A DNA stretch of 64,000 nucleotides from an uncultured Desulfovibrionaceae bacterium (lineage in GTDB: Bacteria; Bacillota; Dethiobacteria; DTU022; UBA8154): NCBI GenBank assembly GCA_964581355.1, contig CAZOOA010000003.1, positions 8,503 through 72,502 on the forward strand, read 5' to 3'. Both the position numbers and the translations under genes were made by a program. Below, one piece after another: positions 37,277 through 59,204 of this stretch; position 1 is the stretch's first letter, and each line of letters starts with the position of its first letter. The notes under the pieces were generated by a model. It did not search any database, was not told the origin of the DNA, and saw nothing but the letters and a program-made list of their open reading frames with translations.

Positions 37277-39031
37277 TTGTCTTTGCCCAAACAAAGCATA
37301 AAGTTGGAACAGGTTTTAAATGCCGTTTATAACGGAATCGTGGCCATTAATACCCGGGGTGAAATTATTTTGTTCAACAAATCAGCAGCCCGGTTTATGG
37401 GCATCTCCAAGGAGGAAGCCCTGGGCCAAAAGGTTGAGACATTAATTCCTAATACCGGCTTACTGGAAATCCTGGAAACAGAAGAAAGCCGGCCGACCCA
37501 AAAACTGCGGATTCGGGGGCGGACGGTGATCAGTAACAGATCCCCTATCTACGACCAAAACCGTGTCCTGGTTGGCGCCATTGGGGTGTTCCAGGATGTT
37601 TCAGAATTGGAAATCATGGCCAAAGAATTAAAAGAAGAACGCGAGATCAAGGAGGAGCTGGATGCAATTATCGAGTCTTCTTATGACGGCATCTGGATTA
37701 CCGACGGTCAAGGTTATACTTTGCACTTAAACAGCGCTTATGAGCGGATATCCGGCCTTAAGAAAGATGAAGTGGTCGGTCGCCACATGCAGGAGTTGGT
37801 GGATGAGGGCTATTTTTCTGAATCTGTTACCCTTCATGTCCTGGAGAAAAAGGAACGGGTGACTATTATGCATAATATTTTCAAAAAAAATGACAAAAAT
37901 GTTTTGATCACCGGGAACCCTATTTTTGATGAGAACAATGAGGTGGTTCGGGTTGTCACCAATGTCCGCGATATTACAGAATTAATAAACCTCAAAGAAG
38001 AAAGGGAAAATAAAAACCGCTTGGCGGCTCAATACAAGGAAGAGCTGGATCGGCTCAGGTCAGGCCAACTGAAACTGGACAACTTTGTTGTTCACAGCTC
38101 ACAGATGCAGCATGTTTTTGACCTGGCTGTCAGGGTGGGCCAGGTAGACTCGATGGTACTGATCAACGGGGAATCCGGTGTGGGGAAGGAAGGCATTGCT
38201 AATGTTATTGTCCAGGCCAGTGAAAGAAGAGACGGTCCTTTTATCAAAATCAACTGCGGAGCGATACCAGAAAACCTTCTTGAGTCAGAGCTTTTTGGTT
38301 ATGAAAAAGGGGCCTTTACCGGTGCAGACCGCAAAGGGAAACTGGGCATGTTTGAGCTGGCCAACAAGGGAACGATTTTTTTGGACGAAGTAGCTGAAAT
38401 TCCACTCAACTTGCAGGTGAAACTGCTCCGGGTTTTCCAGGACCAGCAGATTATGCGCATTGGTGGAGTTAAAACCATTAACCTGGATGTCCGGGTTATC
38501 GCGGCAACCAATAAAAACCTGGAAGAAATGGCCAGGAAGGGAACGTTCAGGGAGGACCTCTACTATCGCCTGAATGTAGTTCCAATTACCGTTCCTCCCC
38601 TGCGGGAAAGAAAAGATGATATCCCGGCATTGATTCACTTTTTTATCAATATGTACAACAAGAAATACAATATGTATAAACGTATTTCCGGCGATGCGAT
38701 TGACTGTTTGATGGAATACCCCTGGCCAGGCAATGTCAGGGAGCTTCAAAACTTGATTGAAAGACTTGTTGTCCTTTCCAGGGAGCCGGTGATTGCCCTG
38801 GATCAGATCCCCCAGCAGTTTAAGAACAGTTACGGGCCAGCAGAAAGCCTGAAGCTGGATGTGAACAACAATATGACGTTAAAAGAGGCCGTATCCATGC
38901 TGGAGCAAGAATTGATCAAAGAGGCTATGAACAGACATAAAACTACACGGAAGGCTGCCCGAGCCCTGGGGGTGGACCAATCCACCATTGTCCGTAAGCT
39001 GAAAAGACTGGAAAGCAAAGAAAGCAGTTAA
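37277..39031 (+). CDS. Sigma54-dependent enhancer-binding protein with two PAS domains
   Basis: Two PAS repeats, Walker A GESGVGKE, ELFGYEKGAFTGA, FREDLYYRLN, WPGNVREL, C-terminal HTH. Confidence 0.96.
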   Translation: MSLPKQSIKLEQVLNAVYNGIVAINTRGEIILFNKSAARFMGISKEEALGQKVETLIPNTGLLEILETEESRPTQKLRIRGRTVISNRSPIYDQNRVLVGAIGVFQDVSELEIMAKELKEEREIKEELDAIIESSYDGIWITDGQGYTLHLNSAYERISGLKKDEVVGRHMQELVDEGYFSESVTLHVLEKKERVTIMHNIFKKNDKNVLITGNPIFDENNEVVRVVTNVRDITELINLKEERENKNRLAAQYKEELDRLRSGQLKLDNFVVHSSQMQHVFDLAVRVGQVDSMVLINGESGVGKEGIANVIVQASERRDGPFIKINCGAIPENLLESELFGYEKGAFTGADRKGKLGMFELANKGTIFLDEVAEIPLNLQVKLLRVFQDQQIMRIGGVKTINLDVRVIAATNKNLEEMARKGTFREDLYYRLNVVPITVPPLRERKDDIPALIHFFINMYNKKYNMYKRISGDAIDCLMEYPWPGNVRELQNLIERLVVLSREPVIALDQIPQQFKNSYGPAESLKLDVNNNMTLKEAVSMLEQELIKEAMNRHKTTRKAARALGVDQSTIVRKLKRLESKESS

Positions 39032-39241: not shown

Positions 39242-39257
39242 TGGCATTGTTTTTGCA
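39242..39257 (+). promoter_or_regulatory. Sigma54 (-24/-12) promoter
   Basis: TGGCATTGTTTTTGCA: GG-N10-GC in TGGCA/TTGCA context, directly after an EBP gene. Confidence 0.88.
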
Positions 39258-39340: not shown

Positions 39341-41293
39341 ATGAAACAGCCGCTCTGGATCCCCAGTGAAGCCCGTATCAAGGAAGCCAATATGACTGAC
39401 TTTACCAGGAGGGTAAATGATCGGTTTGGCAAGGAGTTTTCCACTTACGAAGAACTGTACCAGTGGTCTATTGACAGTGCCCCGGATTTTTGGGAATTTA
39501 TGTGGGAATATGGCCAGGTCAAGCATTCCTCTCCCTACCAGCGGGTGGTCAGTAACATGGACAAAATGCTGGAATGTAAGTGGTTTGAGGGAGCAAAGCT
39601 AAACTTTGCAGAAAATTTGCTTCGTTATCGCGATAACCATACAGCGTTAATTTTTAAAGGAGAAGGGCAGGAACTGGTTTCGATTACCTATGAAGAGCTG
39701 TATGACCAGGTAGCACGTTTAAGTAAGTCGCTCCGGGAAATGGGGGTTAAAGTTGGAGACAGGGTCGCCGGCTTTATGCCCAACATGATTGAAACAGTGG
39801 TGGCTATGCTGGCCACAACCAGTATTGGGGCCATCTGGTCTTCCTGCTCTCCCGATTTTGGTGTGCAGGGGGCTTTGGATCGTTTTGGTCAAATAGAGCC
39901 AAAAGTTTTGTTTACCGCCAACGGATACTTTTACAATGGGAAAAGCCACACTTCCCTGGTGAAAGTGAAAGATATCGTAGCCCAGATTCCTTCAGTGGAA
40001 AAAATCATTGTGGTGCCCTATACCGAGGAAAAGGCTGATATCAGCGGCCTTTCCGATGCGGTTTATTATTCTGATTTTATCTCCTCGCAAAGTGGGCTGG
40101 AAGTCGAATTTGAGCAGCTGCCCTTTGATCACCCTGTTTATATTATGTATTCTTCCGGCACCACCGGAGCACCGAAATGTATCGTGCACGGTGCAGGAGG
40201 CACATTGATTCAGCATCTCAAGGAACTTATTCTGCATACAGATGTGAAACGGGATGATGTTGTCTTTTATTTTACTACCTGCGGCTGGATGATGTGGAAC
40301 TGGTTGGTCAGCACGCTGGCCGTGGGAGCTGCTGTCCTGTTGTATGATGGCAACCCCTTTTACCCGGATGCCGGTATATTATTTAAGGTGGCTGAAGAAA
40401 CAGGAATGACGGTATTTGGTACCAGCGCCCGCTACATTGCTTCCCTGGAGCAGGCTGGCGCCAAGCCAGGCCGGGACTATAATCTTGGTTCGGTAAAAAC
40501 CATGACCTCTACCGGTTCTCCGCTTTCCATCGAAGGCTTTTATTATGTTTACAGGGAAGTCAAAGAAGACATATGTCTTTCCTCCATCTCAGGTGGAACG
40601 GACATTATCTCCTGTTTTGCCCTGGGCAACCCCACGCTTCCGGTTTACCCGGGAGAACTCCAGTGCAGGGGCCTGGGCATGAAAGTGGAGGCATTTGATG
40701 ATAACGGCAACCCGGTGATAAACCAGCAAGGTGAGCTTGTTTGCACTCTGCCTTTCCCCTCCATGCCTGTCTATTTCTGGAACGATGAAGACAATGCCAA
40801 GTATCGCTCCGCATATTTCGAAGTTTATTCCAACGTCTGGCACCACGGGGATTATATTGAGATCACTGATACCGGTGGAGTGATTATCTACGGACGTTCT
40901 GATGCCACATTGAATCCTGGCGGAGTGCGTATTGGAACGGCGGAAATCTACCGGCAGGTGGAAACATTCCCCGAAATAGTTGACAGCCTGGTCATTGGCC
41001 AGAAGTGGGGAGACGATGAACGGGTGGTCCTCTTTGTCAAGCTCGCTGAAGAAGTAACGTTAAATGATGAACTGGTTACGAAAGTGAAGCAATCGATTAA
41101 GCAGGGTGCCAGTCCGCGGCACGTCCCGGCCAAGGTTTTGCCCATCGAAGATATTCCCTATACCATCAACGGTAAAAAAGTGGAGATTGCCGTCAGGAAA
41201 ATGGTTCACGGCGAAGAAGTGAAAAACCGTGAGGCCCTGGCCAACCCGGAGTCACTGGATTTATATCAAGACATTAAGGAATTGCAAGCATAA
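39341..41293 (+). CDS. Acetoacetate--CoA ligase (acetoacetyl-CoA synthetase)
   Basis: WFEGAKLNFAEN, WSSCSPDFG, YSSGTTGAPKCIVHG, WMMWNWL, GRSDATLNPGGVRIGTAEIY, NGKKVE. Confidence 0.92.
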   Translation: MKQPLWIPSEARIKEANMTDFTRRVNDRFGKEFSTYEELYQWSIDSAPDFWEFMWEYGQVKHSSPYQRVVSNMDKMLECKWFEGAKLNFAENLLRYRDNHTALIFKGEGQELVSITYEELYDQVARLSKSLREMGVKVGDRVAGFMPNMIETVVAMLATTSIGAIWSSCSPDFGVQGALDRFGQIEPKVLFTANGYFYNGKSHTSLVKVKDIVAQIPSVEKIIVVPYTEEKADISGLSDAVYYSDFISSQSGLEVEFEQLPFDHPVYIMYSSGTTGAPKCIVHGAGGTLIQHLKELILHTDVKRDDVVFYFTTCGWMMWNWLVSTLAVGAAVLLYDGNPFYPDAGILFKVAEETGMTVFGTSARYIASLEQAGAKPGRDYNLGSVKTMTSTGSPLSIEGFYYVYREVKEDICLSSISGGTDIISCFALGNPTLPVYPGELQCRGLGMKVEAFDDNGNPVINQQGELVCTLPFPSMPVYFWNDEDNAKYRSAYFEVYSNVWHHGDYIEITDTGGVIIYGRSDATLNPGGVRIGTAEIYRQVETFPEIVDSLVIGQKWGDDERVVLFVKLAEEVTLNDELVTKVKQSIKQGASPRHVPAKVLPIEDIPYTINGKKVEIAVRKMVHGEEVKNREALANPESLDLYQDIKELQA

Positions 41294-41379: not shown

Positions 41380-42993
41380 TTGGCTACCTTAGAAGAAAGA
41401 AAGCAGCAGAATTACGAGTTTTGGCTGCAGAAAGACCAGGAATTGCTTGAACGCCGGGAAGAGGCTTACAATGTGGGAGGCGAAAAACAGAAAGAGCGGC
41501 TGGCCAAGCAGGGCAAAAGTCCGGTTAGGGAGCTTATCAGCCAGTTGATTGACCCCGACAGTGATTTTTTCGAGGTGGGGTTGGATGCTGGTTATGATAT
41601 CGGTTATGAACAGCAGCAGCATATCCCCGGTGGAGGAATGGTTACCGGTGTGGGCAAAGTTCATGGCAAAGATTGCATGATTTTTGCCAATGAAAGCCGC
41701 ATGACTGCGGGAACCTACTACCCTATTACCTTGAAAAAGCACATGAGAGCTCAGCGTATCGCCGAAGAATGCGGCTTAACCTGCATTTATATTGCCGACT
41801 CCGGAGGACTGTTTTTGCCCCTGCAGCTGTATGCATTTGCCGATGAAGGAATGTTTGGTTCCATGTTCTATAACATGACCCGCATGTCAGCCAAGGGTAT
41901 TAAACAGTATACCCTGAGCACTGGGGGCAACACCGCCGGCGGTGCTTATATAGTTTACCTGGCCTGTGAATCTATTATGATCGATCAGATGGCCTATGCT
42001 TTCCTGGCTGGGCCTCCCATGGTGCGTTCGGCTATCGGAGAAGAAGTCAGCGCGGAAGACCTGGGGGGCGCCTATGTGCATACCCAGCATTCCGGGGGGT
42101 GTGACCATTTTGTCAGGAGTCAGCAGGAAGGGATCGCCAAGCTAAGAGAAATCATCGCTTTTGACCCGCCCCAGGAAACCCAGATTCACCGCTTTCCCTC
42201 CTGGAATGAACCCCACTTTAGTTCGGGTGATTTGATGGGGGCAGTCCCTTCCGACCCGTACCGTCCCATCAATGTGCGGGAAATTATCCAGTGTGTTGCG
42301 GATGACAGTTACTTTCAGGAATACAAGGCCAATTATGCTCCGGGACGGGGTGATTCCATTATCTGCGGCAAGATGTGGCTTAAAGGGATGCCCGTCGGGG
42401 TTGTGGCCTCCAACGGGACCGGAGTTATTTACATTGAGGCTGCCCGCAAGGCCACAGAGTGGGTTCTGCGCTGCGGCAACGATAAAACGCCTCTGCTGTA
42501 TATTCAAAACTCACCGGGATACATGGTGGGAAGCAATGAGGAGTGGGGCGGTATCGGGAAATACGGTGCAGACATGGTCCGGGCCTGCGCCTGTGTGGAT
42601 GTCCCCAAAATACAGTGGGTTATCGGTCCCGACCATGGAGCGGCAAACTACGGCATGTGTGGCCGGGCTTATCGTCCCCGGTTTGTTTTCCACACCATGC
42701 GGGCACGGACCACGGTTATGGCCGGCAAAACTGCGGCCTTTATTCTCGAAACCATTGAGAGGAAAAACAAGAAAGTCAAAGGCGAGGAAATTGATGAAGA
42801 GAAAATGACTGCGTTTCGTGAGAAAATGGTCGAAGGCTATGACCGGGAAGGGCATCCTTACGTGACCGGTTCCCTGCTTTATCACGACGGGATTCTTACC
42901 TGGGCTGAATCGCGCGACAAGCTGGCTCGCGCTTTTGAGGTCTCCCTATACCAGCCTATTCCCGATTCTCACTTTGGAAACCTGAAGTTTTAG
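41380..42993 (+). CDS. Acyl-CoA carboxylase carboxyltransferase subunit (3-methylcrotonyl-CoA carboxylase beta-like)
   Basis: AGTYYPITLKKHMRAQRIA, DSGG, TAGGAY, LAGPPMVRSAIGEEVSAEDLGG, GAANYGMCGRAY. Confidence 0.85.
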   Translation: MATLEERKQQNYEFWLQKDQELLERREEAYNVGGEKQKERLAKQGKSPVRELISQLIDPDSDFFEVGLDAGYDIGYEQQQHIPGGGMVTGVGKVHGKDCMIFANESRMTAGTYYPITLKKHMRAQRIAEECGLTCIYIADSGGLFLPLQLYAFADEGMFGSMFYNMTRMSAKGIKQYTLSTGGNTAGGAYIVYLACESIMIDQMAYAFLAGPPMVRSAIGEEVSAEDLGGAYVHTQHSGGCDHFVRSQQEGIAKLREIIAFDPPQETQIHRFPSWNEPHFSSGDLMGAVPSDPYRPINVREIIQCVADDSYFQEYKANYAPGRGDSIICGKMWLKGMPVGVVASNGTGVIYIEAARKATEWVLRCGNDKTPLLYIQNSPGYMVGSNEEWGGIGKYGADMVRACACVDVPKIQWVIGPDHGAANYGMCGRAYRPRFVFHTMRARTTVMAGKTAAFILETIERKNKKVKGEEIDEEKMTAFREKMVEGYDREGHPYVTGSLLYHDGILTWAESRDKLARAFEVSLYQPIPDSHFGNLKF

Positions 42994-43070: not shown

Positions 43071-44174
43071 TTGGCAGACAAGTTTCAAATGAATTTCCCC
43101 AAGAAAGTGCGCTTAGGAGACATCACAGTCCGCGATGGTTTTCAGCATGAAGAAAAATTTCTTTCCACCGATGCCAAAGTCTATTACGCAGAAGAAATGA
43201 TTCTTGCTGGCTTTAAAAGGGTGGAGTTGACCAATTTTGGCAACCCCCAGGGGATGCCCCAGTTTAAGGATGCAGACGAACTGTTCAAGCGGGTGCGGGG
43301 CAGCAAAAAGCTGCAGCGGGCCGGCATAAATTGGGACGATATTGAACTAACAGCTATTACCATCCGGGAAAGAGCAGTGGACCGGGCGATTCAGGCGAAA
43401 AAGGACGGATATGGCCCCGACCGGATCCTGATGATGGTTTCCACGGACGAGGAGCACCACTATGCCAATTCCGGCACAACACTGCCTGATTATTGGAAAG
43501 AAGCGGAGCGCTGCATTAAGAAAGCGGCCGACGCCGGAATCAAGATGTGCGGTTGTGTCAGCACTATCTGGGGCAGTCCCATCAGTGGTCCGACCCAGCT
43601 GGAAGAGGCTGTTAAATTCACCAAGTACTTCCTCGATATCGGTGCGGCGGATATTGAGCACGCTGACCACGATGGTTCAGCTCCCCCTGATCAGGTTTAC
43701 CGCTACTTTTCCATGATTTTGGATGCGCTGCCCGACACAGACCTGCATGTGGCCCACTTCCATGCCACCCGCGGTTGGGGTTTGGCCAACATCCTTGCTG
43801 CGCTCAATGCAGGCATCGATATCTTTGAAGGGACCCTGGGAGGTCTGGGTGGCCAGCCAGCCAACTTTGTGGACGACTGCCCCGTCCCCGGAACTGGTTC
43901 TTATTACTACAAGGACCCCAACGTTGTGGGCTTAACCCAGATGGAGGATATGGTGGTTATGATGGACGAAATGGGTATCGATATGGGTGTTGATGTAGAC
44001 AGGGTCCTGGAGTTGGGCACATTGATGGAAAAAACCATCGGCCGGCGTTTGCGTTCAGAAGCCATCTTGAACGGCCGCATTCCCAAGGAGGCCCGCCCGC
44101 AATACAAGCGTGCCGGTCTCCAGGAGAAAAAGCAGGAATTCGGTGAAAAGACAGGACAGAAGTTCCCCGAGTAA
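43071..44174 (+). CDS. Divergent HMG-CoA lyase-like (DRE-TIM) enzyme
   Basis: RDGFQ, HFH metal ligands, GGLGGQPANF in place of the GLGGCP loop. Confidence 0.75.
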   Translation: MADKFQMNFPKKVRLGDITVRDGFQHEEKFLSTDAKVYYAEEMILAGFKRVELTNFGNPQGMPQFKDADELFKRVRGSKKLQRAGINWDDIELTAITIRERAVDRAIQAKKDGYGPDRILMMVSTDEEHHYANSGTTLPDYWKEAERCIKKAADAGIKMCGCVSTIWGSPISGPTQLEEAVKFTKYFLDIGAADIEHADHDGSAPPDQVYRYFSMILDALPDTDLHVAHFHATRGWGLANILAALNAGIDIFEGTLGGLGGQPANFVDDCPVPGTGSYYYKDPNVVGLTQMEDMVVMMDEMGIDMGVDVDRVLELGTLMEKTIGRRLRSEAILNGRIPKEARPQYKRAGLQEKKQEFGEKTGQKFPE

Positions 44175-44256
44175 AAGGCAAAATGTCAATCGCTATAGTA
44201 GCTTAATAGGGTTGACATAACTGCCCTGTGCTTGATTGAATAAAGGGGGGAAAGCA

Positions 44257-45039
44257 ATGACCTGGGAGACAATCCGGGTGGAAGTGAAGGAGAATGTTGC
44301 TGTTATCACCTTTAACCGCCCCGATGCCCTCAACGCTATCAGCACGCAGTTGGCCAGTGACGTAATCTCTGTGATGAGAGAGTTGGCCGATGAACGAGAA
44401 GTTTGGGCTGCCATCTTGACTGCAGAAGGGGAAAAAGCCTTTTGTGTGGGGGCCGACTTGAAGGAAAGAAAAAACATGAGCAAGGAAGACATGATCAAGC
44501 AGCGGGAGTTGTTTGTCCGGGCTTTCAGAGCGGTATCTGAATTTCCCAAGCCGCTTATCGCTGCAGTGAATGGTTTTGCCATGGGCGGAGGCTTTGAGTT
44601 TGCCCTGGGCTGTGACCTGATCTATGCTTCGGATAATGCTGTGTTGGCTCTTCCAGAGGTTGGTCTGGGTATTATTCCCGGTGGAGGCGGGACCGTCAAC
44701 CTGCCCCGCTTGATCGGTAAAAGCAAGGCCAAGGAACTGATTTTTACCGGTCGGCGCCTCACTGCAGCGGAAGCAGAAGAGTGGGGAATTGTCAGCAGAG
44801 TGGCTCCCCGGGATGAACTGTTAAATGCCGCCCGGGAACTGTGCAGCGAAATCACGAAAAATGCCCCTGTGGCAGTTTGGCAAGCCAAAAAATCTGTTAA
44901 CCTGGGCATGGAAGTGGACATTGCCAGTGCTTTTGCCCTGGAGGCGGAATGCTATAATGTCTGCTTGAAGACGGAAGACCGTGATGAAGGACTTAAGGCG
45001 TTTAATGAGAAAAGAAAGCCTGTCTATAAGGGCTATTAA
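44257..45039 (+). CDS. Enoyl-CoA hydratase family (probable methylglutaconyl-CoA hydratase)
   Basis: AFCVGADLKER, GFAMGGGFE, LPEVGLGIIPGGGGT; context of a liu-type cluster. Confidence 0.88.
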   Translation: MTWETIRVEVKENVAVITFNRPDALNAISTQLASDVISVMRELADEREVWAAILTAEGEKAFCVGADLKERKNMSKEDMIKQRELFVRAFRAVSEFPKPLIAAVNGFAMGGGFEFALGCDLIYASDNAVLALPEVGLGIIPGGGGTVNLPRLIGKSKAKELIFTGRRLTAAEAEEWGIVSRVAPRDELLNAARELCSEITKNAPVAVWQAKKSVNLGMEVDIASAFALEAECYNVCLKTEDRDEGLKAFNEKRKPVYKGY

Positions 45040-45218
45040 GTGTCATTGTGTTGAACCTGCAACCGAGGGGCCGGCTTTGGCTGCTTTTGGACGGAACAGC
45101 CGGCCCCATTCAGGTTCACTTGGCCTTGTACGCTTGTGCAATGCAATGGAATGGGGTGATTGTTTAAACTTGTTTTCCGGTTCTGAGTCAGATTGAATAA
45201 TTACAGGAGGTGTTTGGG

Positions 45219-46379
45219 TTGGATTTTACATTTACCCAGGAACAACAGATGCTTGGAGACGAGGTTTACAGATGGGCGTGTGACTGGCTGGAGCCAAAAA
45301 TGGAAGAGATTGATGAAAAGGATGAATTTCCAGAAGATTTCTTTAAAGAAACAGCAAAGATGGATCTTAATGGTATTACCATTGATGAAGAGTATGGAGG
45401 TGCGGGGCTTGGCTATACCGAGGCCTGTATCGTTGCCGAAAATTTAGGTCGAATCTCTTCCTCTTTCGCCATGAACTGGGGGGCGCATCTCATCTTGTGC
45501 GTTGATAACATTCAACGCAATGCGTCCAAGGAGCAAAAGGAAAAATACCTGCCACCACTGGTTAATGGTGAAAAAGTAGGTTGTCTTGGTATTACAGAAC
45601 CCGATTCCGGTTCTGATGCCATGTCGATGCGGACTACCGCAGTCCGTGAAGGGGATCACTATATTGTAAATGGCAGTAAGACATTTATTACCAACGCCCC
45701 GGTAGCAGATTTAATGCTGTTTTATGCCAAAACAGCGCCGGACAAAGGGGCTCATGGTATCAGTGCTTTAGTTATGGATCTGGATACACCCGGTTATAGC
45801 TGTAATAAAATTAAAAAGTTTGGTATGCGGGGATCTCCTACAGGTGAGCTGGCCTTTAACGATGTCAAAGTGCCAGCGGATAATTTAGTCGGCGAGGAAA
45901 ATGGCGGAGTGAAAATATTGACGGGCGGCCTTTGCACAGAAAGGATCGTCCTTTCTGCTTGTGCCTTGGGTACCATGAGGGCTGCCATGGATTTAAGCGT
46001 AAAGTACGCCAAAGAGCGGCAGCAGTTTGGTCGTTCTCTCGGCAGCTTTCAGCTGATTCAGCAAAAACTGGCCGACATGTATTGTGCTTACCAAACCGCC
46101 AAGTGGTTGATATACTATGCAGCCTGGTATGTGGATCAACTGGAAGATAAGCGGGGCGGAAAGGGGACAGAGCTGGATAAGATTGCGGCTTCAGCTATCC
46201 TCTATGCTTCTGAAGCCTGCACCAAGGTCTGCCTGGATGGTGTGCAGATCCACGGTGGTTACGGATACTGCCTGGAATACCCCATACAAAGGCACCTCAG
46301 GGATGCCAAACTTTGGGAAATTGGTGCTGGAACTTCAGAAATAAGAAGGATGATTATTGCCCGCGAGATGTTGCGATAA
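45219..46379 (+). CDS. Isovaleryl-CoA dehydrogenase-like acyl-CoA dehydrogenase
   Basis: GLCTERIVL (IVD-type catalytic Glu position) and [12 protein letters not shown] (GAG in place of YEG). Confidence 0.85.
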
Positions 46380-47535: not shown

Positions 47536-47799
47536 TTGTTTAAAGACATTCATCCCAGTTTCTGGTGGGGAATTGCCATTTTCTACGGGTATTGTATGGT
47601 CTTCATGATCATTGAAATGAGTGTCCCGGGTTTTATTTACCACACGAAAATCGGAGCGGCCCCAGCGGCCTATATCTATTCGTTGACTGTAGGCTTGTAT
47701 ATCATCCCGTTGATTGTATCGTTTATGTGGTTTTACCTGCCTGAACAGGACCAAAAACGCAGGGCTGCACAGAAGTCCGGGAAGGGGGTCGACCAGTAA
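47536..47799 (+). CDS. Small two-TM accessory protein of the solute symporter (DUF485-like position)
   Basis: Two TM helices; stop overlaps the symporter start. Confidence 0.75.
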   Translation: MFKDIHPSFWWGIAIFYGYCMVFMIIEMSVPGFIYHTKIGAAPAAYIYSLTVGLYIIPLIVSFMWFYLPEQDQKRRAAQKSGKGVDQ

Positions 47800-49448
47800 T
47801 GGCTGAAGTAAACCCTATTGTTATTATCACTGCGATTATCTATTTTATTGCCATGATTGTGATCGGCTACATGACCCGGAAAGCATCTGCGGACCCCATG
47901 GATTACTATGTAGCCGGCAGGAAGATCGGCGCATTTATCAATGGGTCGGCTCTCTCGGCAACGTATTTTAGCCCTGCAAGCTTTATGGGACTTCCAGCTT
48001 TCGTCTTTCTGCTGGGCTATCCTTTCTGGTGGGCCATGGTAGGGATTATCGGCGGATTGCCTCTGGCTTCCATGTTGACAGCGGCGCCGCTGCGTAAGTA
48101 TGCGCCTGTGTCTTTTACTGATTATTTCGCAGACCGCTATGAAAGCGAAAAGGCCATGCGAGTCGTGGCCGGCTTGCCGACAATCCTGGCTGGCTGGGCT
48201 TATATCGTCCTTTCTCTGGTGGGGATGGGACTGTTTATGATGGCTATTTTGCGGGTAAATTACGGCGTGGCGGTTGTAATCGGAACCATTATTATCTTCG
48301 TTTATGTGTTCCTGGGCGGGATGGTGGCTACATCCTTTTCCACCGGTTTCCAGGGGATTATTATCACTATTGCGGCCCTGGTTGCCGCCTTTGCCGTCAA
48401 TGCACATTATGGTGGCTTTGGCGCTACAGCAGATGCGGTTTTTGCCAACAACCCCGAGTTTTGGGCAGCGCCCGGAAGCGGGCATCTCCCAGGTGCATCG
48501 CCAGGTGATACTGCCCACCCGCTTATGTCGTACTGGACCGGCATGGTGAGTTTCTTCTTTGTCTGGCACTTCGGCTTTTCCACCATGCCTTATACCATCG
48601 TCCGCTTCTTTACAGCGATGGATGTAAATTCCGCACGGCGGGCTGTTTTTTGGGCTGTGGTGGTTGGTGGGGCAATGTATTGGGGGTTGGTCCAAATCGG
48701 AACAGCAGCTCGTGCGCTGATTGAGTCCATGCACCCCTTGCTGGATCCTGCGGCCGGGATCGAAAGCGCGGAGCAGGTGCTCGCCACCATTCAGGGTATT
48801 TACCAGATCGGGGGTGTGGCTGTCACCGACTATTCCATGGTGGCCGGCCTGGAAGCTCTGGGCAACCCGGTCTTGATGGCAATCCTGGTGGCTGGAGGCA
48901 TGGCTATCGCCATGGCTACAGGTGCAGGTTTCGTTATGGTGCTCAACGTTCTCTTCAGCCGGGATATTATGGGTAAAGTAATTGGCAACAAGTGGGCGAT
49001 CGAAAACCCCGTAGCCGGCATGCGACTGTGGACAACAATTATCCTGATCATTTGTGCCATTTTCGCTTTGAACCCCTTTGCTTTAGTTCTTGACCTGTCA
49101 GGCTGGGCCTTTATCGTGATTATCTGTACCACCGGGGTCCCCCTTATCTTTGGAATCTGGTGGCCGCGGGCAACCAAAACGGCTGCTTTTGCTACGATAA
49201 TTCTTTTCCTGATTGCCACCTGCTTTACCTGGTTGTATTCGCATATGGTTATAGGAAGTGCTCACTTCTTTTTCTGGTACCATGCCTTTGTGCCGCCGGC
49301 AGAAGCAGAACAGATCATTGCGACAGGCCACCAGAACTACTGGATTCCCTTGTCAATTATCTTTTTCATCGTGGTATCACTTTTGACAAAGCCTTGTTCC
49401 GATGAGACAATTAAAAAATATTGCACGGGACTAACCAGGGATGAATAG
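47799..49448 (+). CDS. Sodium:solute symporter (ActP-like monocarboxylate transporter)
   Basis: DYYVAGRKIG, SATYFSPASFMG, P..IVRFFT; about 13 TM segments. Confidence 0.9.
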   Translation: MAEVNPIVIITAIIYFIAMIVIGYMTRKASADPMDYYVAGRKIGAFINGSALSATYFSPASFMGLPAFVFLLGYPFWWAMVGIIGGLPLASMLTAAPLRKYAPVSFTDYFADRYESEKAMRVVAGLPTILAGWAYIVLSLVGMGLFMMAILRVNYGVAVVIGTIIIFVYVFLGGMVATSFSTGFQGIIITIAALVAAFAVNAHYGGFGATADAVFANNPEFWAAPGSGHLPGASPGDTAHPLMSYWTGMVSFFFVWHFGFSTMPYTIVRFFTAMDVNSARRAVFWAVVVGGAMYWGLVQIGTAARALIESMHPLLDPAAGIESAEQVLATIQGIYQIGGVAVTDYSMVAGLEALGNPVLMAILVAGGMAIAMATGAGFVMVLNVLFSRDIMGKVIGNKWAIENPVAGMRLWTTIILIICAIFALNPFALVLDLSGWAFIVIICTTGVPLIFGIWWPRATKTAAFATIILFLIATCFTWLYSHMVIGSAHFFFWYHAFVPPAEAEQIIATGHQNYWIPLSIIFFIVVSLLTKPCSDETIKKYCTGLTRDE

Positions 49449-49678: not shown

Positions 49679-51364
49679 ATGACAGGAAACAACTTTTTAG
49701 TGGGGAAACAGCAGCGGCCGCCTAATGATTTTTTTGAAATCACCTATGGAGATTTGCTGGATCAGCGGGCCGAGGAGTACGGGGACAAGGAAGCCATCGG
49801 ATATTACAGTCAAATTAACAAAACGTGGTCCTACAAGGAATACCGGGATATTTGTAACAAGGTTGCCAAAAGCCTGATTAAGCTGGGCGTAAAAAAAGGC
49901 GATAAAGTATCTGCGTGGGCGACCAATATCCCGGAGTGGATCTTTACCTATGGCGGAACAGTAAAAATGGGTGGCATCCTTGTTACGGTCAATACCAACT
50001 ACCGGGCTCACGAGCTGGAATACCTGCTTAAGCAGTCTGACACCAATACACTGCTGCTTATTGACGAATTCAAGGGCAACAACTATCTTGAGTGCCTCTA
50101 CGAGGTTGTGCCGGAGCTTAAGGATGCTGAGCCCGGCAAGCTGAACTCCAGCAAACTACCCTTCTTGAAAAATGTTGTTTTCGCCGGCGAGGAAAAACAC
50201 CCGGGCATGTTTACCTGGAAGGAGTTTGAGGAATACGGAAACGACGTTACTGATGAGGAGCTGGCGCGCTATCAAAATGCCTGCGACCCGCATGATGTTT
50301 TTAATATGCAGTATACCTCAGGCACCACCGGTTTTCCCAAAGGTGTTATGCTGACCCATCACAATGTCATTAACAACGCCTGGTACGTGGGAGAGGCCCA
50401 GAACTACACCGATGCGGAACGACTAGCTATCCCGGTGCCTTTTTTCCACTGCTTTGGACTGACCATGAGCATTACGACCTGTTTGACTCATGGAGCCACC
50501 GCTCTTCCCGTTAAGTATTATGATCCGGAATGGGTCCTGGAAACCATTCACAATGGAGGCGCCACTGCCTGCCAGGGGGTGCCGACCATGTTTATCGGTG
50601 TTCTAAACCATCCCGATTTTGAAAAATACGATAAGAAACATATGCGTACAGGCATAATGGCCGGAGCAACATGCCCTATCGAGGTTATGAAACAGGTTAC
50701 GGAGAAGTTGGCGCCTGAAGTTACTATTTCTTACGGGATGACAGAAACTTCCCCCGTTGTTACCAAGACCCGGCCCACGGACACACTGGAGCGCAGAGTT
50801 TCGACCGTGGGGCGTCCGCTGCCGCACGTGGAACTGGAGATCCGCGACCCGGAAACCGGAAAAGAAGTTCCCCGCAATACGGTTGGAGAAATATGCTGCA
50901 GGGGTTATGTGGTCATGAAAGGCTACTATAAGATGGAAGAAGCCACAAAAGAAGCCTTTTCCGAAGACGGGTTCTATCGTTCCGGGGACCTGGGGACCAT
51001 GGATGAAGAGGATTACGTCACGGTCACTGGCCGCCTCAAGGATATGATTATCCGGGGCGGGGAAAACATCTATCCGCGTGAACTCGAAGAGTTTTTCTAC
51101 AAGCATCCCAAGATAAGCGACGTGCAGGTTATCGGGGTGCCCAGTGAAAAATATGGGGAAGAAGTTGCCGCTTACATTGTATTAAAGCAAGGCGAAAGCG
51201 CTACGGCAGAGGAAATAAAAGAGTTTGCCCAGGGCCAGATCGCCCGCCACAAAATTCCCAAGTATATCCAGTTTGTTGATGCATATCCCATGACAGCCAG
51301 CGGCAAAATTCAAAAGTACCTTTTGCGTGACCAGGCGATTGAAGACTTTAACCTGAAAGCCTAA
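49679..51364 (+). CDS. AMP-forming acyl-CoA synthetase
   Basis: QYTSGTTGFPKG, YGMTETSP, SGDLG, GRLKDMIIRGGENIYPRE, TASGKIQK. Confidence 0.93.
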   Translation: MTGNNFLVGKQQRPPNDFFEITYGDLLDQRAEEYGDKEAIGYYSQINKTWSYKEYRDICNKVAKSLIKLGVKKGDKVSAWATNIPEWIFTYGGTVKMGGILVTVNTNYRAHELEYLLKQSDTNTLLLIDEFKGNNYLECLYEVVPELKDAEPGKLNSSKLPFLKNVVFAGEEKHPGMFTWKEFEEYGNDVTDEELARYQNACDPHDVFNMQYTSGTTGFPKGVMLTHHNVINNAWYVGEAQNYTDAERLAIPVPFFHCFGLTMSITTCLTHGATALPVKYYDPEWVLETIHNGGATACQGVPTMFIGVLNHPDFEKYDKKHMRTGIMAGATCPIEVMKQVTEKLAPEVTISYGMTETSPVVTKTRPTDTLERRVSTVGRPLPHVELEIRDPETGKEVPRNTVGEICCRGYVVMKGYYKMEEATKEAFSEDGFYRSGDLGTMDEEDYVTVTGRLKDMIIRGGENIYPRELEEFFYKHPKISDVQVIGVPSEKYGEEVAAYIVLKQGESATAEEIKEFAQGQIARHKIPKYIQFVDAYPMTASGKIQKYLLRDQAIEDFNLKA

Positions 51365-51402: not shown

Positions 51403-51437
51403 AAGGTGCCCGCACCGTGCAGCGGGCACCTTTTTTT
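51403..51437 (+). terminator. Intrinsic terminator
   Basis: AAGGTGCCCGC-N8-GCGGGCACCTT followed by a T-run. Confidence 0.88.
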
Positions 51438-51552
51438 GAATAAAAACGGAGTTTTCCTTTTCACGGTATCGGGTCCGGTTATTTTTTTCTCTGTTATTGT
51501 TGTCATTACCAGGTGCCTGGTATAAAGTAAAAGAAAAACAAAGGTGGTCGTC

Positions 51553-52446
51553 ATGAACTTGAAAAAAGTAACTGTGCGAGAGGTAGGTCCCAGGGATGGC
51601 TTTCAGATGGAAAACAAACTGATCACCGCAGAGGAAAAGGTGAAAATAATTAACCAACTTGCTGCCGCAGGGTTGAAGAATGTGGAGTTCTCCTCTTTTG
51701 TTCATCCGAAAGCGGTTCCCCAGCTTAAAGATGCAGAAGAGGTTGCTGCTATGCTTCTACCTGCTGAGGATGTTCTGTTCAGTGCCCTGGTTGTTAATGA
51801 GAAAGGTCTGGCACGGGCAGTAAATGCCGGGGTTCGGGAAGTGCAGATGATTGTTTCGGCCTCTGAGGCCCACAGTCAACGCAATGTTCAAATGAGTGTT
51901 TCAGAATCGCTCAGCCAAGCCGTCTCCGTTGCTGAGCAGGCTTTAGGGCATGGTGTTGCAGTGCGTTCTGCCGTCGCCATGGCTTTTGGTTGTCCTTTTG
52001 ATGGAAAGATTGACCAGGAACAGGTGGAGCGTATTGCAGCAGAGATGGCGGAAGCGGGAATTGAACAGATAACCCTTGCTGACACGGCAGGCCTGGCGCA
52101 TCCCCTGCAGGTTAAAGAATTACTGCATGTTTTGCTGAAAAAAATGCCCGGGATTCGCTGGGGGTTACACTTTCATGATACCCGTGGGCTGGCCCTGGCC
52201 AATATTAATGCTTCCATGGAAGTTGGGGTCAGCCTGTTTGAATCATCAATTGGCGGCCTGGGTGGTTGTCCTTTTGTTCCAGGGGCTACAGGGAATGTTG
52301 CTACCGAGGATCTGGTAAATATGCTGGAAATGATGGGTTTGGAAACAGGAATATCCCTGGAGAAATTACTTGCTGCCAGCAGGGAAGTGCAAAAAATCTT
52401 TCAACGGGACCTGCCCAGCAAGCTGCTGGCCCTTTCATTACATTAA
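51553..52446 (+). CDS. Hydroxymethylglutaryl-CoA lyase (canonical)
   Basis: EVGPRDGFQ, HFHDTRG, GGLGGCPFVPGATGNVATED. Confidence 0.9.
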   Translation: MNLKKVTVREVGPRDGFQMENKLITAEEKVKIINQLAAAGLKNVEFSSFVHPKAVPQLKDAEEVAAMLLPAEDVLFSALVVNEKGLARAVNAGVREVQMIVSASEAHSQRNVQMSVSESLSQAVSVAEQALGHGVAVRSAVAMAFGCPFDGKIDQEQVERIAAEMAEAGIEQITLADTAGLAHPLQVKELLHVLLKKMPGIRWGLHFHDTRGLALANINASMEVGVSLFESSIGGLGGCPFVPGATGNVATEDLVNMLEMMGLETGISLEKLLAASREVQKIFQRDLPSKLLALSLH

Positions 52447-54183: not shown

Positions 54184-55038
54184 ATGCAGATAAAAAAGGT
54201 CATGGTGGTTGGTGCAGGCCAAATGGGGGGAGGCATTGCGCAGGTCTGTGCGCAAGCGGGTTATCCTGTCGTAATGAGAGATATCGAGGAAAGCTTTGTG
54301 GAGAAGGGTCTCGGCGCTATAGCAAAAAACTTGCAGCGAAGTGTTGACAAAGGCAGGATTAGCGAAGATGACAAGAAATCAGTCTTAGACCGAATACAGG
54401 GGACAGTGGAACTGAAAGATGGTGCCGATGCAGATATTGTTATTGAGGCCATTGTGGAACGAATGGATATCAAGGAAGAGCTCTTCAGTTCTTTGGACGA
54501 AATGTGTCCATCCCACACCATCTTGGCCAGCAATACTTCTTCTTTGCCGATCACCAATATTGCAGCTGTAACCTCGCGTCCAGAAAAAGTTATTGGTATG
54601 CATTTCATGAATCCGGTTCCGGTGATGAAGTTGGTGGAGATCATTCGCGGCCTGGCCACTTCCGATGAAACCTACCAGGTGGTTGAAGATCTAACCATGA
54701 AGCTGGACAAAGAGCCCGTAGAGGTAAATGATTTCCCAGGATTTGTATCCAACCGCATTTTGCTGCCAATGATTAACGAAGCCGTTTACTGCCTGATGGA
54801 AGGTGTTGCCCGTCCTGAAGCCATCGATAATGTCATGAGATTGGGCATGAATCATCCCATGGGCCCACTGGCACTGGCTGACCTCATCGGTTTGGATACG
54901 TGCCTGTCAATTATGGAAGTTCTGCATGAAGGGCTGGGGGACCCTAAGTATCGCCCCTGCCCGCTATTGCGAAAATATGTCGCTGCCGGTTGGCTGGGAC
55001 GCAAAGCAGGCCGGGGCTTCTACGATTATAGTGGATAA
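54184..55038 (+). CDS. hbd: 3-hydroxybutyryl-CoA dehydrogenase
   Basis: [27 protein letters not shown]. Confidence 0.94.
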
Positions 55039-56321: not shown

Positions 56322-56386
56322 ATAATTCGGCAGCAGTCATTTTAGTTTAACATAACTAATTTAAAAAAACGAAGGGGGAAGTATTA

Positions 56387-57526: not shown

Positions 57527-57551
57527 AACTACTAAAAACCCGGCCGAGGAG

Positions 57552-58165: not shown

Positions 58166-58192
58166 GGCATACAATTAGGTGGTGTTAAAACA

Positions 58193-59140: not shown

Positions 59141-59204
59141 AAGCTTGTAGGTTGAGAAAGGAGGTGCGTGCCCGGTTTTTTCAGGAAAGAACCGGGCAAG
59201 AACA

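What the first reader, a model, noticed from the sequence alone, without database searches (positions are those of the whole stretch)
41380..42993. Carboxyltransferase with no biotin carboxylase or biotin carrier in its operon
Seen: an MCC-beta-like gene sits between the ligase and the lyase; no biotin carboxylase, no MKM biotinyl domain and no Na+-pump beta subunit is present in the 64 kb. Established: canonical MCC needs an alpha (BC-BCCP) subunit. Inference: carboxylation of 3-methylcrotonyl-CoA may use a shared carrier, transcarboxylation or ion-gradient-driven chemistry, which would save ATP in an energy-limited anaerobe.
Basis: partly seen in the sequence, partly recalled or inferred. 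Interest (0 to 1): 0.55.

Follow-up and report, generated by a model that had tools for sequence, protein, structure and literature searches.

The report
Orphan methylcrotonyl-CoA carboxyltransferase, no biotin carboxylase
A leucine/isovalerate-degrading operon of an uncultured anaerobic Bacillota bacterium encodes only the carboxyl-transfer half of methylcrotonyl-CoA carboxylase, and because the genome has no ATP-using biotin carboxylase, the CO2 must arrive some other way, most likely through the cell's single biotin carrier, which belongs to a sodium-pump module.

Summary
41380-42993 is an intact 537-aa carboxyltransferase of the MCC-beta lineage. It lies in a putative sigma54 operon: acetoacetate-CoA ligase, CT, HMG-CoA-lyase-like, enoyl-CoA hydratase, acyl-CoA dehydrogenase.

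The assembly (3.24 Mb, 100% complete by markers) has no biotin carboxylase, no ACC and no 5S/PycB. It has two carboxyltransferases, this one and an MmdA-like one. Its one biotin carrier lies on another contig in a delta/carrier/beta module of a Na+-translocating decarboxylase.

The CT belongs to a tight clade (61-91% identity across Bacillota and Thermodesulfobacteriota, plus one bin labelled Actinomycetes). No alpha gene lies next to any member examined, and canonical MCC-beta is at most about 43% identical. In Desulfococcus multivorans a cluster of the same gene order and sizes is made only on isovalerate.

Best reading (about 0.45): the CT is the catalytic subunit for 3-methylcrotonyl-CoA carboxylation and takes carboxybiotin from the shared carrier, charged by reversal of the Na+ pump. 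No step of this mechanism is shown. Deltaproteobacterial carriers lack the pump and have 5S-like carrier fusions, so the donor differs by lineage.

New variant of a known kind; interest 0.62.

The parts
37277..39031 (+). sigma54 enhancer-binding protein (PAS-PAS, AAA+, HTH), putative regulator of the operon
   Evidence: Sigma54_activat 231 bits, PAS, HTH_50. A sigma54 EBP is also present in most related clusters.
39242..39256 (+). sigma54 -24/-12-like promoter element TGGCATTGTTTTTGC, 85 bp upstream of the ligase start
   Evidence: One mismatch to TGGCAC-N5-TTGC. The count in the window is not above chance, so only its position supports it.
39341..41293 (+). acetoacetate-CoA ligase (AMP-forming)
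   Evidence: TIGR01217 963 bits, cut-off 521. In related clusters its slot holds either this ligase or a two-subunit CoA-transferase.
41380..42993 (+). MCC-beta-type carboxyltransferase with no alpha subunit: the finding
   Evidence: PF01039 347 bits. Best PDB matches are a chain deposited as PCC beta (9tps, 422 bits, identity not checked), human MCC beta (418) and P. aeruginosa MccB (400); GcdA scores 84-88. Monophyletic alpha-less clade.
43071..44174 (+). divergent HMG-CoA-lyase-like protein (367 aa; GGLGG-Q instead of GGLGG-C, with an insertion of about 18 residues), a conserved neighbour of the CT
   Evidence: PF00682 97 bits; NCBIfam HMG-CoA lyase 161 bits, below the cut-off of 246. Motifs. 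AF2 model pLDDT 89.9; best folds are HMG-CoA lyases, TM 0.91-0.94.
44236..45039 (+). enoyl-CoA hydratase (putative 3-methylglutaconyl-CoA hydratase)
   Evidence: ECH_1 244 bits. Conserved in related clusters.
45210..46379 (+). acyl-CoA dehydrogenase (putative isovaleryl-CoA dehydrogenase; substrate not assignable from sequence)
   Evidence: Acyl-CoA_dh N/M/C domains. No NCBIfam model above its cut-off.
47799..49448 (+). Na+/solute symporter (monocarboxylate-type), putative substrate uptake
   Evidence: SSF 150 bits; TIGR03648 187 bits, below cut-off.
49679..51364 (+). acyl-CoA ligase (putative isovalerate activation), followed by a strong terminator at 51403-51432
   Evidence: AMP-binding 313 bits; PRK12583 730 bits, below the cut-off of 832. 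Terminator.
51544..52446 (+). canonical HMG-CoA lyase (GGLGGCPF)
   Evidence: NCBIfam PRK05692 360 bits, cut-off 246. 270 bits to B. subtilis HMG-CoA lyase 1YDO.
52921..54102 (+). acetyl-CoA C-acetyltransferase (thiolase)
   Evidence: PRK08235 562 bits, cut-off 526.
54184..55038 (+). 3-hydroxyacyl-CoA dehydrogenase
   Evidence: 3HCDH_N 229 bits and 3HCDH 132 bits.

Best explanation
The gene encodes the carboxyltransferase (beta-type) subunit of a 3-methylcrotonyl-CoA carboxylating enzyme in an anaerobic isovalerate/leucine catabolic pathway. The proposed route is isovalerate uptake and activation, dehydrogenation to 3-methylcrotonyl-CoA, carboxylation to 3-methylglutaconyl-CoA, hydration, lyase cleavage to acetoacetate plus acetyl-CoA, then acetoacetate activation and thiolysis. 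The organism has no biotin carboxylase. The CT therefore cannot work as a canonical ATP-dependent alpha6beta6 MCC. It must receive carboxybiotin from the genome's only biotin carrier, a 164-aa MmdC/GcdC-type protein encoded with a delta-like anchor and an OadB/GcdB-type beta subunit on another contig. Most likely the beta subunit runs in reverse: Na+ influx drives carboxylation of the carrier's biotin, and the CT passes the CO2 to 3-methylcrotonyl-CoA. The same carrier would be shared with the genome's second CT (MmdA-like). Shown: gene content, clade identity, absence of BC, the single carrier and conserved synteny. Inferred: the substrate, the CT-carrier interaction and the direction of the pump.
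For: (1) The CT is MCC-beta-like, not GcdA- or PccB-like: human MCC beta 418 bits, P. aeruginosa MccB 400, PCC/MmdA/12S 177 or less, GcdA 88 or less. The nearest named cluster representatives are fungal and alphaproteobacterial MCC beta, and a tree agrees.
(2) The pathway context is conserved in 63 loci from Bacillota and Thermodesulfobacteriota and one bin labelled Actinomycetes: hydratase, two HMGL-type genes, ACAD, and acetoacetate-CoA ligase or CoA-transferase.
(3) In D. multivorans the cluster EchA2(260)-Mcc(530)-HmgL(390)...AcsA6(650) has the same gene order and sizes. Those proteins were formed only in 3-methylbutanoate-grown cells, and no alpha subunit is listed (PMC5109826 and its Table S1).
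(4) There is no BC in the genome and no 5S/PycB. HMG-CoA synthase is absent, so the route is not an anabolic one towards isovaleryl-CoA.
(5) There is exactly one biotinyl carrier, with an EAMKME motif and a Pro/Ala linker. It lies in the operon delta-like(202 aa)-carrier(164 aa)-beta(377 aa; TIGR01109 518 bits). The other Biotin_lipoyl hits are a BCKDH E2 and GcvH. BirA is present.
(6) The same module in the same neighbourhood occurs in the closest relative and in another BC-less carrier, G042.
(7) In the order, OAD_beta occurs in 38 of 41 genomes and BC in only 9 of 41.
(8) FabD and FabF are present without any ACC, so a BC-independent carboxylation of acetyl-CoA is needed anyway.
(9) RnfD and a Na+/solute symporter in the cluster are compatible with a Na+ economy.
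(10) From my own knowledge, not checked here: reversal of Oad and Mmd Na+ pumps to carboxylate pyruvate and acetyl-CoA was shown in vitro (Dimroth and Hilpert 1984).
Against: There is no direct evidence that the CT contacts the carrier or the delta anchor. The module is on another contig, co-transcribed with a 2-oxoacid:ferredoxin oxidoreductase rather than with a CT. The CT is only distantly related to GcdA, the known pump-associated CT acting on a glutaconyl-type substrate. Most deltaproteobacterial genomes carrying the same CT clade lack OAD_beta (30 of 40 carriers, including complete chromosomes). The pump therefore cannot be the clade's general partner, and a partner-independent mechanism would be more economical. 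The assembly has 175 contigs, and the MmdA-like CT sits 48 bp from a contig end. The operon uses an AMP-forming acetoacetate-CoA ligase, which weakens the energy-saving rationale.
Confidence: 0.45

Rival explanations
1. Transcarboxylation on the shared carrier without the pump. The MmdA-like CT loads the single biotin carrier from methylmalonyl-CoA (made from succinyl-CoA by the mutase operon). The MCC-beta-like CT then unloads it onto 3-methylcrotonyl-CoA. Neither ATP nor Na+ is consumed.
For: There are two CTs and one carrier in the genome. The MmdA-like CT lies in a sigma54-EBP, SucCD, mutase, epimerase operon that can supply methylmalonyl-CoA. In deltaproteobacterial carriers without pump the available carriers are fused to 5S/OadA-like proteins, meaning transcarboxylase-type donors. 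G050 has neither BC nor OAD_beta but does have a 5S-like protein with two biotinyl domains. Transcarboxylation is the accepted energy-saving solution for syntrophic propionate oxidation (PMC7382037; PMC2996986).
Against: It needs a stoichiometric supply of succinate or methylmalonyl-CoA, which isovalerate oxidation does not generate. Published stoichiometry (3 acetate per isovalerate, with CO2 required; Stieb and Schink 1986, as cited in PMC5109826) implies net CO2 fixation. No 5S-type donor exists in this genome.
Confidence: 0.15
2. A carrier-independent mechanism. The alpha-less CT works with free biotin or no biotin. The unfavourable carboxylation is pulled by the exergonic hydration and lyase steps, possibly in a complex with the invariant HMG-CoA-lyase-like neighbour.
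For: The CT and the 367-aa lyase-like gene are adjacent, or separated only by the hydratase, in most loci from several phyla, whereas the host's biotin toolkit varies widely: none, PycAB only, AccBC, a PCC-type alpha, the pump. The lyase-like family is extremely conserved: 124 positions are at least 98% invariant in 126 sequences, including the metal and Arg-Asp site plus family-specific His residues. It coexists with a canonical HMG-CoA lyase in the same clusters. The CT clade sits on a stem of 2.05 substitutions per site. GcdA alone decarboxylates glutaconyl-CoA with free biotin (Braune 1999, as cited in PMC2996986). My rough estimate is that the sum of carboxylation, hydration and cleavage is near thermoneutral.
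Against: No CT-family enzyme is known to carboxylate without carboxybiotin. The steady-state 3-methylglutaconyl-CoA level would be extremely low. The lyase-like protein folds like an ordinary HMG-CoA lyase and not like a 5S carboxyltransferase (TM 0.91-0.94 against 0.48), so it may simply be the operon's lyase, as D. multivorans HmgL (390 aa) was annotated. In Dethiobacter-type loci the CT stands alone, without it.
Confidence: 0.12
3. A canonical alpha subunit exists but is missing from the draft assembly, so the enzyme is an ordinary ATP-dependent MCC.
For: The draft has 175 contigs and 4.6% contamination. Some relatives in the order do carry BC genes (9 of 41).
Against: Marker completeness is 100%. 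There is no BC fragment anywhere by HMM or tblastn, and no ACC CT subunits either. The closest relative with the same CT has only PycA/PycB. No alpha gene lies beside the CT in any locus examined from a broad set of taxa. BC-less genomes are the rule in this order. The complete control genome of Thermotoga maritima shows the same pattern: CT, OAD_beta, FabD and FabF present, Biotin_carb_C absent.
Confidence: 0.08
4. The CT works physiologically as the alpha subunit of a Na+-exporting decarboxylase (3-methylglutaconyl-CoA or glutaconyl-CoA to the enoyl-CoA plus CO2). On this reading it conserves energy rather than consuming it.
For: The only biotin machinery is a decarboxylase-type pump. The operon's ACAD scores 312 bits against the non-decarboxylating glutaryl-CoA dehydrogenase model. 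ACAD, CT and hydratase would also fit a glutaryl-CoA route.
Against: That score is below the model's cut-off of 470. The CT is MCC-beta-like, not GcdA-like. Two HMG-CoA-lyase-type genes and acetoacetate activation are conserved with it and have no role in glutarate breakdown. There is no HMG-CoA synthase to feed a decarboxylative route. The D. multivorans cluster of the same architecture is induced by isovalerate.
Confidence: 0.07

Closest known systems
3-Methylcrotonyl-CoA carboxylase beta subunit (MccB/LiuB; human MCCC2, P. aeruginosa PA2014, M. tuberculosis AccD1)
   Same: A full-length two-lobed carboxyltransferase. It is the best sequence match to solved MCC beta chains (386-418 bits). 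It falls within the MccB-like group in the tree. It is embedded in leucine/isovalerate catabolic genes.
   Different: No alpha (BC-BT-BCCP) partner lies beside it or anywhere in the genome. Identity to canonical MCC beta representatives is 43% or less, and the clade sits on a separate long branch. Its constant neighbour is a divergent HMG-CoA-lyase-like protein instead.
Na+-translocating glutaconyl-CoA / methylmalonyl-CoA decarboxylases (GcdABCD, MmdABCDE)
   Same: The genome holds the full membrane and carrier set: a delta-like anchor, a biotin carrier with a Pro/Ala linker, and a beta subunit. The CT genes are encoded elsewhere, as for gcdA of Acidaminococcus (Braune 1999, cited in PMC2996986). 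The chemistry is the same vinylogous carboxyl transfer as Gcd, with an extra methyl group.
   Different: The CT is not a GcdA orthologue (84-88 bits). The proposed direction is carboxylation, which has been shown only in vitro for Oad and Mmd. Physical association is untested.
Desulfococcus multivorans isovalerate cluster (Dmul_28430-28480: AcsA6, HmgL, Mcc, EchA2)
   Same: The same gene set and sizes: a 530-aa single 'Mcc', a long 390-aa HmgL, a 260-aa hydratase and a 650-aa AcsA6. No alpha subunit is listed, and the proteins are specific to 3-methylbutanoate-grown cells. A Desulfobacterales homologue of the CT is 72% identical (P0027).
   Different: Orthology with the D. multivorans proteins themselves could not be checked, because their sequences were not at hand. 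That organism is a sulfate reducer, and its biotin toolkit is unknown to me.
Methylmalonyl-CoA:pyruvate transcarboxylase (12S/5S/1.3S) and the orphan gcdA-oadA pair of Geobacter bemidjiensis
   Same: Both illustrate carboxyl transfer between two CT-type subunits through a shared biotin carrier without ATP. Deltaproteobacterial carriers of this CT clade encode 5S-like proteins with one or two biotinyl domains, as noted for G. bemidjiensis.
   Different: This genome has no 5S/OadA/PycB. The neighbouring HMGL-like protein folds as an HMG-CoA lyase, not as a 5S subunit.

Membership tests
MCC beta subunit (MccB/LiuB) | Full-length acyl-CoA carboxyltransferase domain (PF01039, N and C lobes) | tested here: met
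   347 bits, profile positions 4-482 of 493, residues 43-526.
MCC beta subunit (MccB/LiuB) | Closer to characterised MCC beta than to PCC beta, MmdA, GCC beta or GcdA | tested here: met
   Human MCC beta 418 bits, P. aeruginosa MccB 400, Mtb AccD1 386, GCC beta 299, PCC/MmdA/12S 177 or less, GcdA 88 or less. The single top hit (9tps, 422 bits) is deposited as PCC beta and its identity was not checked. The tree groups it with the MccB-like sequences (SH-aLRT 97) against an MmdA/PccB outgroup, on its own long branch.
MCC beta subunit (MccB/LiuB) | Genomic association with isovaleryl-CoA dehydrogenase, methylglutaconyl-CoA hydratase and HMG-CoA lyase | tested here: met
   ACAD, ECH and two HMGL-type genes lie in the window. 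The association is conserved in the related loci.
MCC beta subunit (MccB/LiuB) | A partner alpha subunit (BC + BT + BCCP) forming the alpha6beta6 holoenzyme | tested here: not met
   No Biotin_carb_C in the genome. No BC by tblastn. No alpha gene adjacent to the CT in any related locus.
MCC beta subunit (MccB/LiuB) | Carboxyl transfer from carboxybiotin to C4 of 3-methylcrotonyl-CoA | not testable with these tools
   This needs an enzyme assay.
Na+-translocating decarboxylase, alpha (CT) subunit | Beta (OadB/GcdB), delta/gamma anchor and biotin carrier present in the genome | tested here: met
   C4 operon: OAD_beta 530 bits and TIGR01109 518 bits; a 164-aa carrier with EAMKME; a 202-aa protein with a TM segment and a weak OAD_gamma match (23.9 bits, below the cut-off of 27).
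Na+-translocating decarboxylase, alpha (CT) subunit | Orthology of the CT to GcdA or MmdA | tested here: not met
   GcdA 84-88 bits. NCBIfam mmdA 221 bits against a cut-off of 999. The genome's MmdA-like CT is a different gene, on C12.
Na+-translocating decarboxylase, alpha (CT) subunit | Physical association with the membrane module, and Na+ dependence | not testable with these tools
   The genes lie on different contigs (C3 and C4). No interaction or transport data are available.
Transcarboxylase (12S/5S/1.3S) | A 5S-type subunit (HMGL-like TIM barrel plus PYC_OADA domain) in the genome | tested here: not met
   The five HMGL-like hits are LeuA-type synthases and the two lyase-type genes. 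PycB queries hit only the carrier's biotinyl domain.
Transcarboxylase (12S/5S/1.3S) | The neighbouring HMGL-like protein is 5S-like | tested here: not met
   No PYC_OADA domain. Best folds are HMG-CoA lyases (TM 0.91-0.94); 5S gives 0.48.

The most novel reading that the evidence does not exclude
The alpha-less MCC-beta clade and its almost invariant HMG-CoA-lyase-like neighbour form a self-contained carboxylase-lyase machine. It would need neither a biotin carboxylase nor a dedicated carrier, with CO2 addition to the dienolate pulled by the exergonic downstream cleavage. This would explain why the pair is conserved across phyla whose biotin toolkits have nothing in common. It would be a new way of making a C-C bond with CO2 without ATP.
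Probability: 0.1. Interest if true: 0.9.

Novelty: new variant of a known kind. Interest (0 to 1): 0.62.

Why it matters
Anaerobic breakdown of leucine-derived isovalerate is a thermodynamically tight step in methanogenic and sulfidic ecosystems. Its carboxylation has simply been drawn as 'MCC'. The gene clusters that carry it out in Syntrophales, Syntrophobacteraceae, Desulfobacterales and Syntrophomonadaceae-like Bacillota encode only the beta-type subunit. At least this genome, a second BC-less Bacillota carrier, and two deltaproteobacterial bins of unknown or at least 90% completeness (G048, G050) show no biotin carboxylase at all.

If carboxybiotin is supplied by a Na+ pump running backwards, or by transcarboxylation, the ATP cost of the pathway changes, and with it the minimum energy quantum for syntrophic isovalerate oxidation. 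The enzyme would also be an in-vivo case of a reversed decarboxylase pump.

The same genome has a full FAS II set and no ACC. The same answer would therefore explain how BC-less bacteria, including Thermotoga by the control searches, obtain malonyl-CoA.

Tried and rejected
(1) GcdA identity was rejected: 84-88 bits to GcdA against 400-418 to MCC beta.

(2) The neighbour as a 5S-type carboxyltransferase, which would make a 12S/5S transcarboxylase pair, was rejected. It has no PYC_OADA domain, its RDGxQ / E / HxH site is HMG-CoA-lyase-like, and its fold is closest to HMG-CoA lyases.

(3) A BC-BCCP alpha (684 aa) lies 11.7 kb upstream of the CT in one complete Syntrophales chromosome. It sits beside its own PccB-like CT, and in G051 the BC is on a different contig from the CT. 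I read it as a possibly shared PCC-type alpha, not as MccA.

(4) The BC in the closest relative is PycA, next to PycB. BCs in other Bacillota carriers are PycA, AccC, or part of an ECH-BC-ACAD-PccB-like cluster.

(5) The weak third Biotin_lipoyl hit is GcvH inside gcvT-H-PA-PB, judged from gene order and sizes. The second is the BCKDH E2.

(6) The 431-aa ATP-grasp on C24 matches no BC domains and no NCBIfam model.

(7) The Na+ pump as the universal partner of the clade was rejected: OAD_beta is present in only 10 of 40 carrier genomes.

(8) Literature searches for a described alpha-less or Na+-dependent MCC, or for a 'methylglutaconyl-CoA decarboxylase', found nothing.

The contexts of the lyase-like gene in cultured organisms (Koleobacter, Dethiobacter alkaliphilus, Metallumcola, Desulfomonile tiedjei) could not be read.

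(10) The protein atlas gave only HMGL-like neighbours.

(11) The careful ML tree did not finish in the time allowed, so only the quick tree (SH-aLRT, no bootstrap) is reported.
Full report
WHAT IS THERE

The ORF at 41380-42993 (+) is intact and 537 aa long. It matches the acyl-CoA carboxyltransferase domain over its whole length (PF01039, 347 bits). Homologues of the same length align end to end at up to 91% identity.

It is the third gene of a plus-strand series, with short gaps and no convincing internal terminator:
- a sigma54 enhancer-binding protein (37277-39031);
- a -24/-12-like element at 39242-39256;
- acetoacetate-CoA ligase (39341-41293; TIGR01217 963 bits);
- the CT;
- an HMGL-like protein of 367 aa (43071-44174);
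- an enoyl-CoA hydratase (44236-45039);
- an acyl-CoA dehydrogenase (45210-46379).

Further genes follow: a Na+/solute symporter, an acyl-CoA ligase closed by a strong terminator at 51403-51432, a canonical HMG-CoA lyase (51544-52446; 360 bits against a cut-off of 246), a thiolase, a 3-hydroxyacyl-CoA dehydrogenase, two more ACADs and a B12 mutase set. The window is therefore a branched-chain fatty acid catabolic island.

THE MISSING PARTNER

The window's contig has no hit for Biotin_carb_C, Biotin_lipoyl or OAD_beta. The same holds for the assembly (3.24 Mb, 175 contigs, 100% complete, 4.6% contamination):
- No Biotin_carb_C.
- CPSase_L_D2 hits only two CarB, D-Ala-D-Ala ligase, PurD and an unrelated ATP-grasp.
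- tblastn with three biotin carboxylases from related genomes gives only those ATP-grasp proteins, at 27% identity or less.
- Only two Carboxyl_trans genes, so no AccA/AccD either.
- No 5S/OadA/PycB-type protein.

The second CT is MmdA-like (848 bits to TIGR01117). It ends a sigma54-EBP, SucCD, methylmalonyl-CoA mutase, epimerase operon 48 bp before a contig end.

The Biotin_lipoyl hits resolve as follows:
- a BCKDH E2;
- GcvH, judged from its place in a gcvT-H-PA-PB gene series;
- one true biotin carrier: 164 aa, an N-terminal beta-strand motif, a long Pro/Ala linker and EAMKME.

The carrier lies between a 202-aa protein (one TM segment, a weak below-cut-off OAD_gamma match and an MmdD/GcdD-like C-terminus) and an OadB/GcdB-type beta subunit (TIGR01109 518 bits). 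This module sits downstream of a three-subunit 2-oxoacid:ferredoxin oxidoreductase. BirA is present. The genome therefore holds a Gcd/Mmd-type membrane module with no CT of its own, and two CT genes elsewhere.

IS THE ABSENCE REAL?

Several results argue against an assembly gap.
- In 41 genomes of the same order, BC is found in 9 and OAD_beta in 38.
- The only sampled relative with the same CT (91% identity; named hit Syntrophomonadaceae CSSed10_9) has a single BC. That BC is PycA next to PycB. The relative has the same oxidoreductase-delta-carrier-beta arrangement.
- A second BC-less Bacillota carrier, G042, has the same module.
- The control genome of Thermotoga maritima shows the same pattern: CT, OAD_beta, FabD and FabF present, Biotin_carb_C absent.

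The genome here also has FabD (332 bits) and FabF (635 bits), both above cut-off. It must therefore make malonyl-CoA without a BC.

WHAT KIND OF CT IT IS

Against solved structures, scores are: 9tps, deposited as a PCC beta and not otherwise identified, 422 bits; human MCC beta 418; P. aeruginosa MccB 400; M. tuberculosis AccD1 386; geranyl-CoA carboxylase beta 299; PCC, MmdA and 12S at most 177; GcdA 84-88.

In a library clustered at 50% identity, its clade is a single cluster (representative 61% identical, 762 bits). The next representatives drop to 421 bits and 43% identity or less. Those that carry names are fungal mitochondrial and alphaproteobacterial MCC beta and an actinobacterial acyl-CoA carboxylase beta.

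A quick ML tree puts 20 members from Bacillota and Thermodesulfobacteriota in one clade (SH-aLRT 100). The clade sits on a stem of 2.05 substitutions per site, inside the MccB-like group (97), with MmdA/PccB as outgroup. The careful search did not finish, so there is no bootstrap.

CONSERVED NEIGHBOURHOOD

Across 63 loci (Dethiobacter and Syntrophomonadaceae-like Bacillota, Syntrophales, Syntrophobacteraceae, one bin labelled Actinomycetes), the CT usually travels with:
- the 367-aa-type HMGL protein (64-91% identical);
- a hydratase;
- a second HMGL-type gene;
- an ACAD;
- either the acetoacetate-CoA ligase or, in the same slot, a two-subunit CoA-transferase;
- often a sigma54 EBP.

No locus has an alpha subunit beside the CT. 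In some Bacillota loci (L019, L020, L023, L073) the CT stands alone. In L019, the one annotated, it lies between a short-chain fatty acid transporter and leuS; the other three have matching ORF layouts.

Published proteogenomics of Desulfococcus multivorans lists EchA2 (260 aa), Mcc (530), HmgL (390) and AcsA6 (650) in one cluster. These proteins were formed exclusively in 3-methylbutanoate-grown cells, and no alpha subunit is listed (PMC5109826 and Table S1). This architecture matches the present one and is the best functional evidence for an isovalerate role. Orthology to those exact proteins could not be checked. HMG-CoA synthase is absent from the genome, so the pathway is catabolic.

THE PARTNER DIFFERS BY LINEAGE

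OAD_beta is present in only 10 of 40 carrier genomes. These are mostly the Bacillota carriers. It is absent from 30, including complete deltaproteobacterial chromosomes.

BC content also varies:
- none in G000, G042, G048 and G050;
- PycA/PycB only in G011, G043, G073, G056 and G064;
- AccB/AccC in G044 and G045;
- a PCC-type alpha next to its own PccB-like CT in G055.

The four pump-less deltaproteobacterial carriers examined (G050, G055, G056, G064) each encode a 5S/OadA-like protein with one or two C-terminal biotinyl domains. This is a transcarboxylase-type carrier, like the one discussed for Geobacter bemidjiensis.

The simplest general statement is that this CT clade is a plug-in subunit that uses whatever carboxybiotin donor the host has. 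In this genome the only possible protein-bound donor is the carrier of the Na+ module.

MECHANISM, AND WHAT IS INFERRED

I commit, at 0.45, to the following. The CT transfers CO2 from the shared 164-aa carrier to 3-methylcrotonyl-CoA. The carrier is charged by the beta subunit working backwards at the expense of the Na+ gradient. RnfD and a Na+-coupled symporter are present.

Precedent from my own knowledge, not checked here: Oad and Mmd pumps carboxylate pyruvate and acetyl-CoA in vitro when driven by a Na+ gradient (Dimroth and Hilpert 1984). Reverse Gcd operation has also been proposed for Syntrophus aciditrophicus.

Rivals:
- transcarboxylation from methylmalonyl-CoA through the MmdA-like CT and the same carrier (0.15);
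- a carrier-independent reaction pulled by the lyase, possibly in complex with the 367-aa protein (0.12);
- an unassembled alpha subunit (0.08);
- a decarboxylase direction (0.07).

THE 367-AA NEIGHBOUR

This protein keeps Arg-Asp, Glu and His-x-His of HMG-CoA lyase. It has Gln at the catalytic-loop Cys, an 8-residue shift to a Cys that is not invariant, and a GTGxYYY insertion. In 126 sequences, 124 positions are at least 98% invariant.

Its AF2 model (pLDDT 89.9, with the insertion at low confidence) is closest to HMG-CoA lyases (TM 0.91-0.94) and far from 5S (0.48). It is in 68 of 121 Syntrophales genomes.

It is probably a lyase variant. Why it coexists with a canonical lyase and tracks the CT remains unexplained.

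COMPARISON AND VERDICT

The gene works like, and descends from, MCC beta. It fails one defining feature of MCC, the alpha partner. It is not a GcdA orthologue, although the genome offers it a Gcd-type module. I found no paper that addresses the missing alpha subunit.

I rate it a new variant of a known kind, interest 0.62. The mechanism is open and directly testable.

LIMITS

The genome is a draft.

Noticed in passing
window 43071-44174; also L035:11689-12915, L041:12521-13699: A very strongly conserved, uncharacterised subfamily of HMG-CoA-lyase-like proteins (GGLGG-Q-P-x-N-F, GTGxYYY, E-H-A-D-H-D-G-S). In 126 sequences, 124 positions are at least 98% invariant. It usually lies next to the alpha-less CT and often alongside a canonical HMG-CoA lyase. 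It is present in 68 of 121 Syntrophales genomes.
   Followed up: partly
G000 whole genome (C5:10137-13403 fabD/fabF; C12:50594-52132 MmdA-like CT; C4:62932-65182 delta/carrier/beta): A complete FAS II core (FabD, FabF above cut-off) is present, but there is no acetyl-CoA carboxylase of any kind. Malonyl-CoA must come from the BC-less biotin system or from outside. The Thermotoga maritima control genome shows the same pattern.
   Followed up: partly
G000:C4:62932-67660 (L082:8930-13660, minus strand): The Na+-decarboxylase delta/carrier/beta genes have no CT of their own. They follow a three-subunit 2-oxoacid:ferredoxin oxidoreductase (PRK08659 563 bits) in one gene series. The arrangement is conserved in the closest relative (L096).
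   Followed up: partly
window 55182-60872: Two ACADs, a cob(I)alamin adenosyltransferase, MeaB and a large subunit of an acyl-CoA mutase follow the thiolase and HBD genes. This may be an isobutyryl-CoA/butyryl-CoA (or related) mutase route, which would make the window a branched-chain fatty acid island. The B12-binding small subunit was not located.
   Followed up: no
L019:10001-14666, and the matching ORF layouts in L020, L023, L073: In Dethiobacter-type genomes the CT orthologue (76-82% identical) stands alone, without lyase-like or hydratase neighbours. In L019, the one annotated, it lies between a divergently transcribed short-chain fatty acid transporter and leucyl-tRNA synthetase.
   Followed up: no
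L123/L126 (G050:C86:29262-32712): A 5S/OadA-like protein with two tandem biotinyl domains occurs in a Syntrophales bin that shows neither BC nor OAD_beta. It recalls the two-domain OadA noted next to gcdA in Geobacter bemidjiensis.
   Followed up: no
G000:C63:14326-16263: A second acetoacetate-CoA ligase paralogue, 57% identical to the operon's copy.
   Followed up: no
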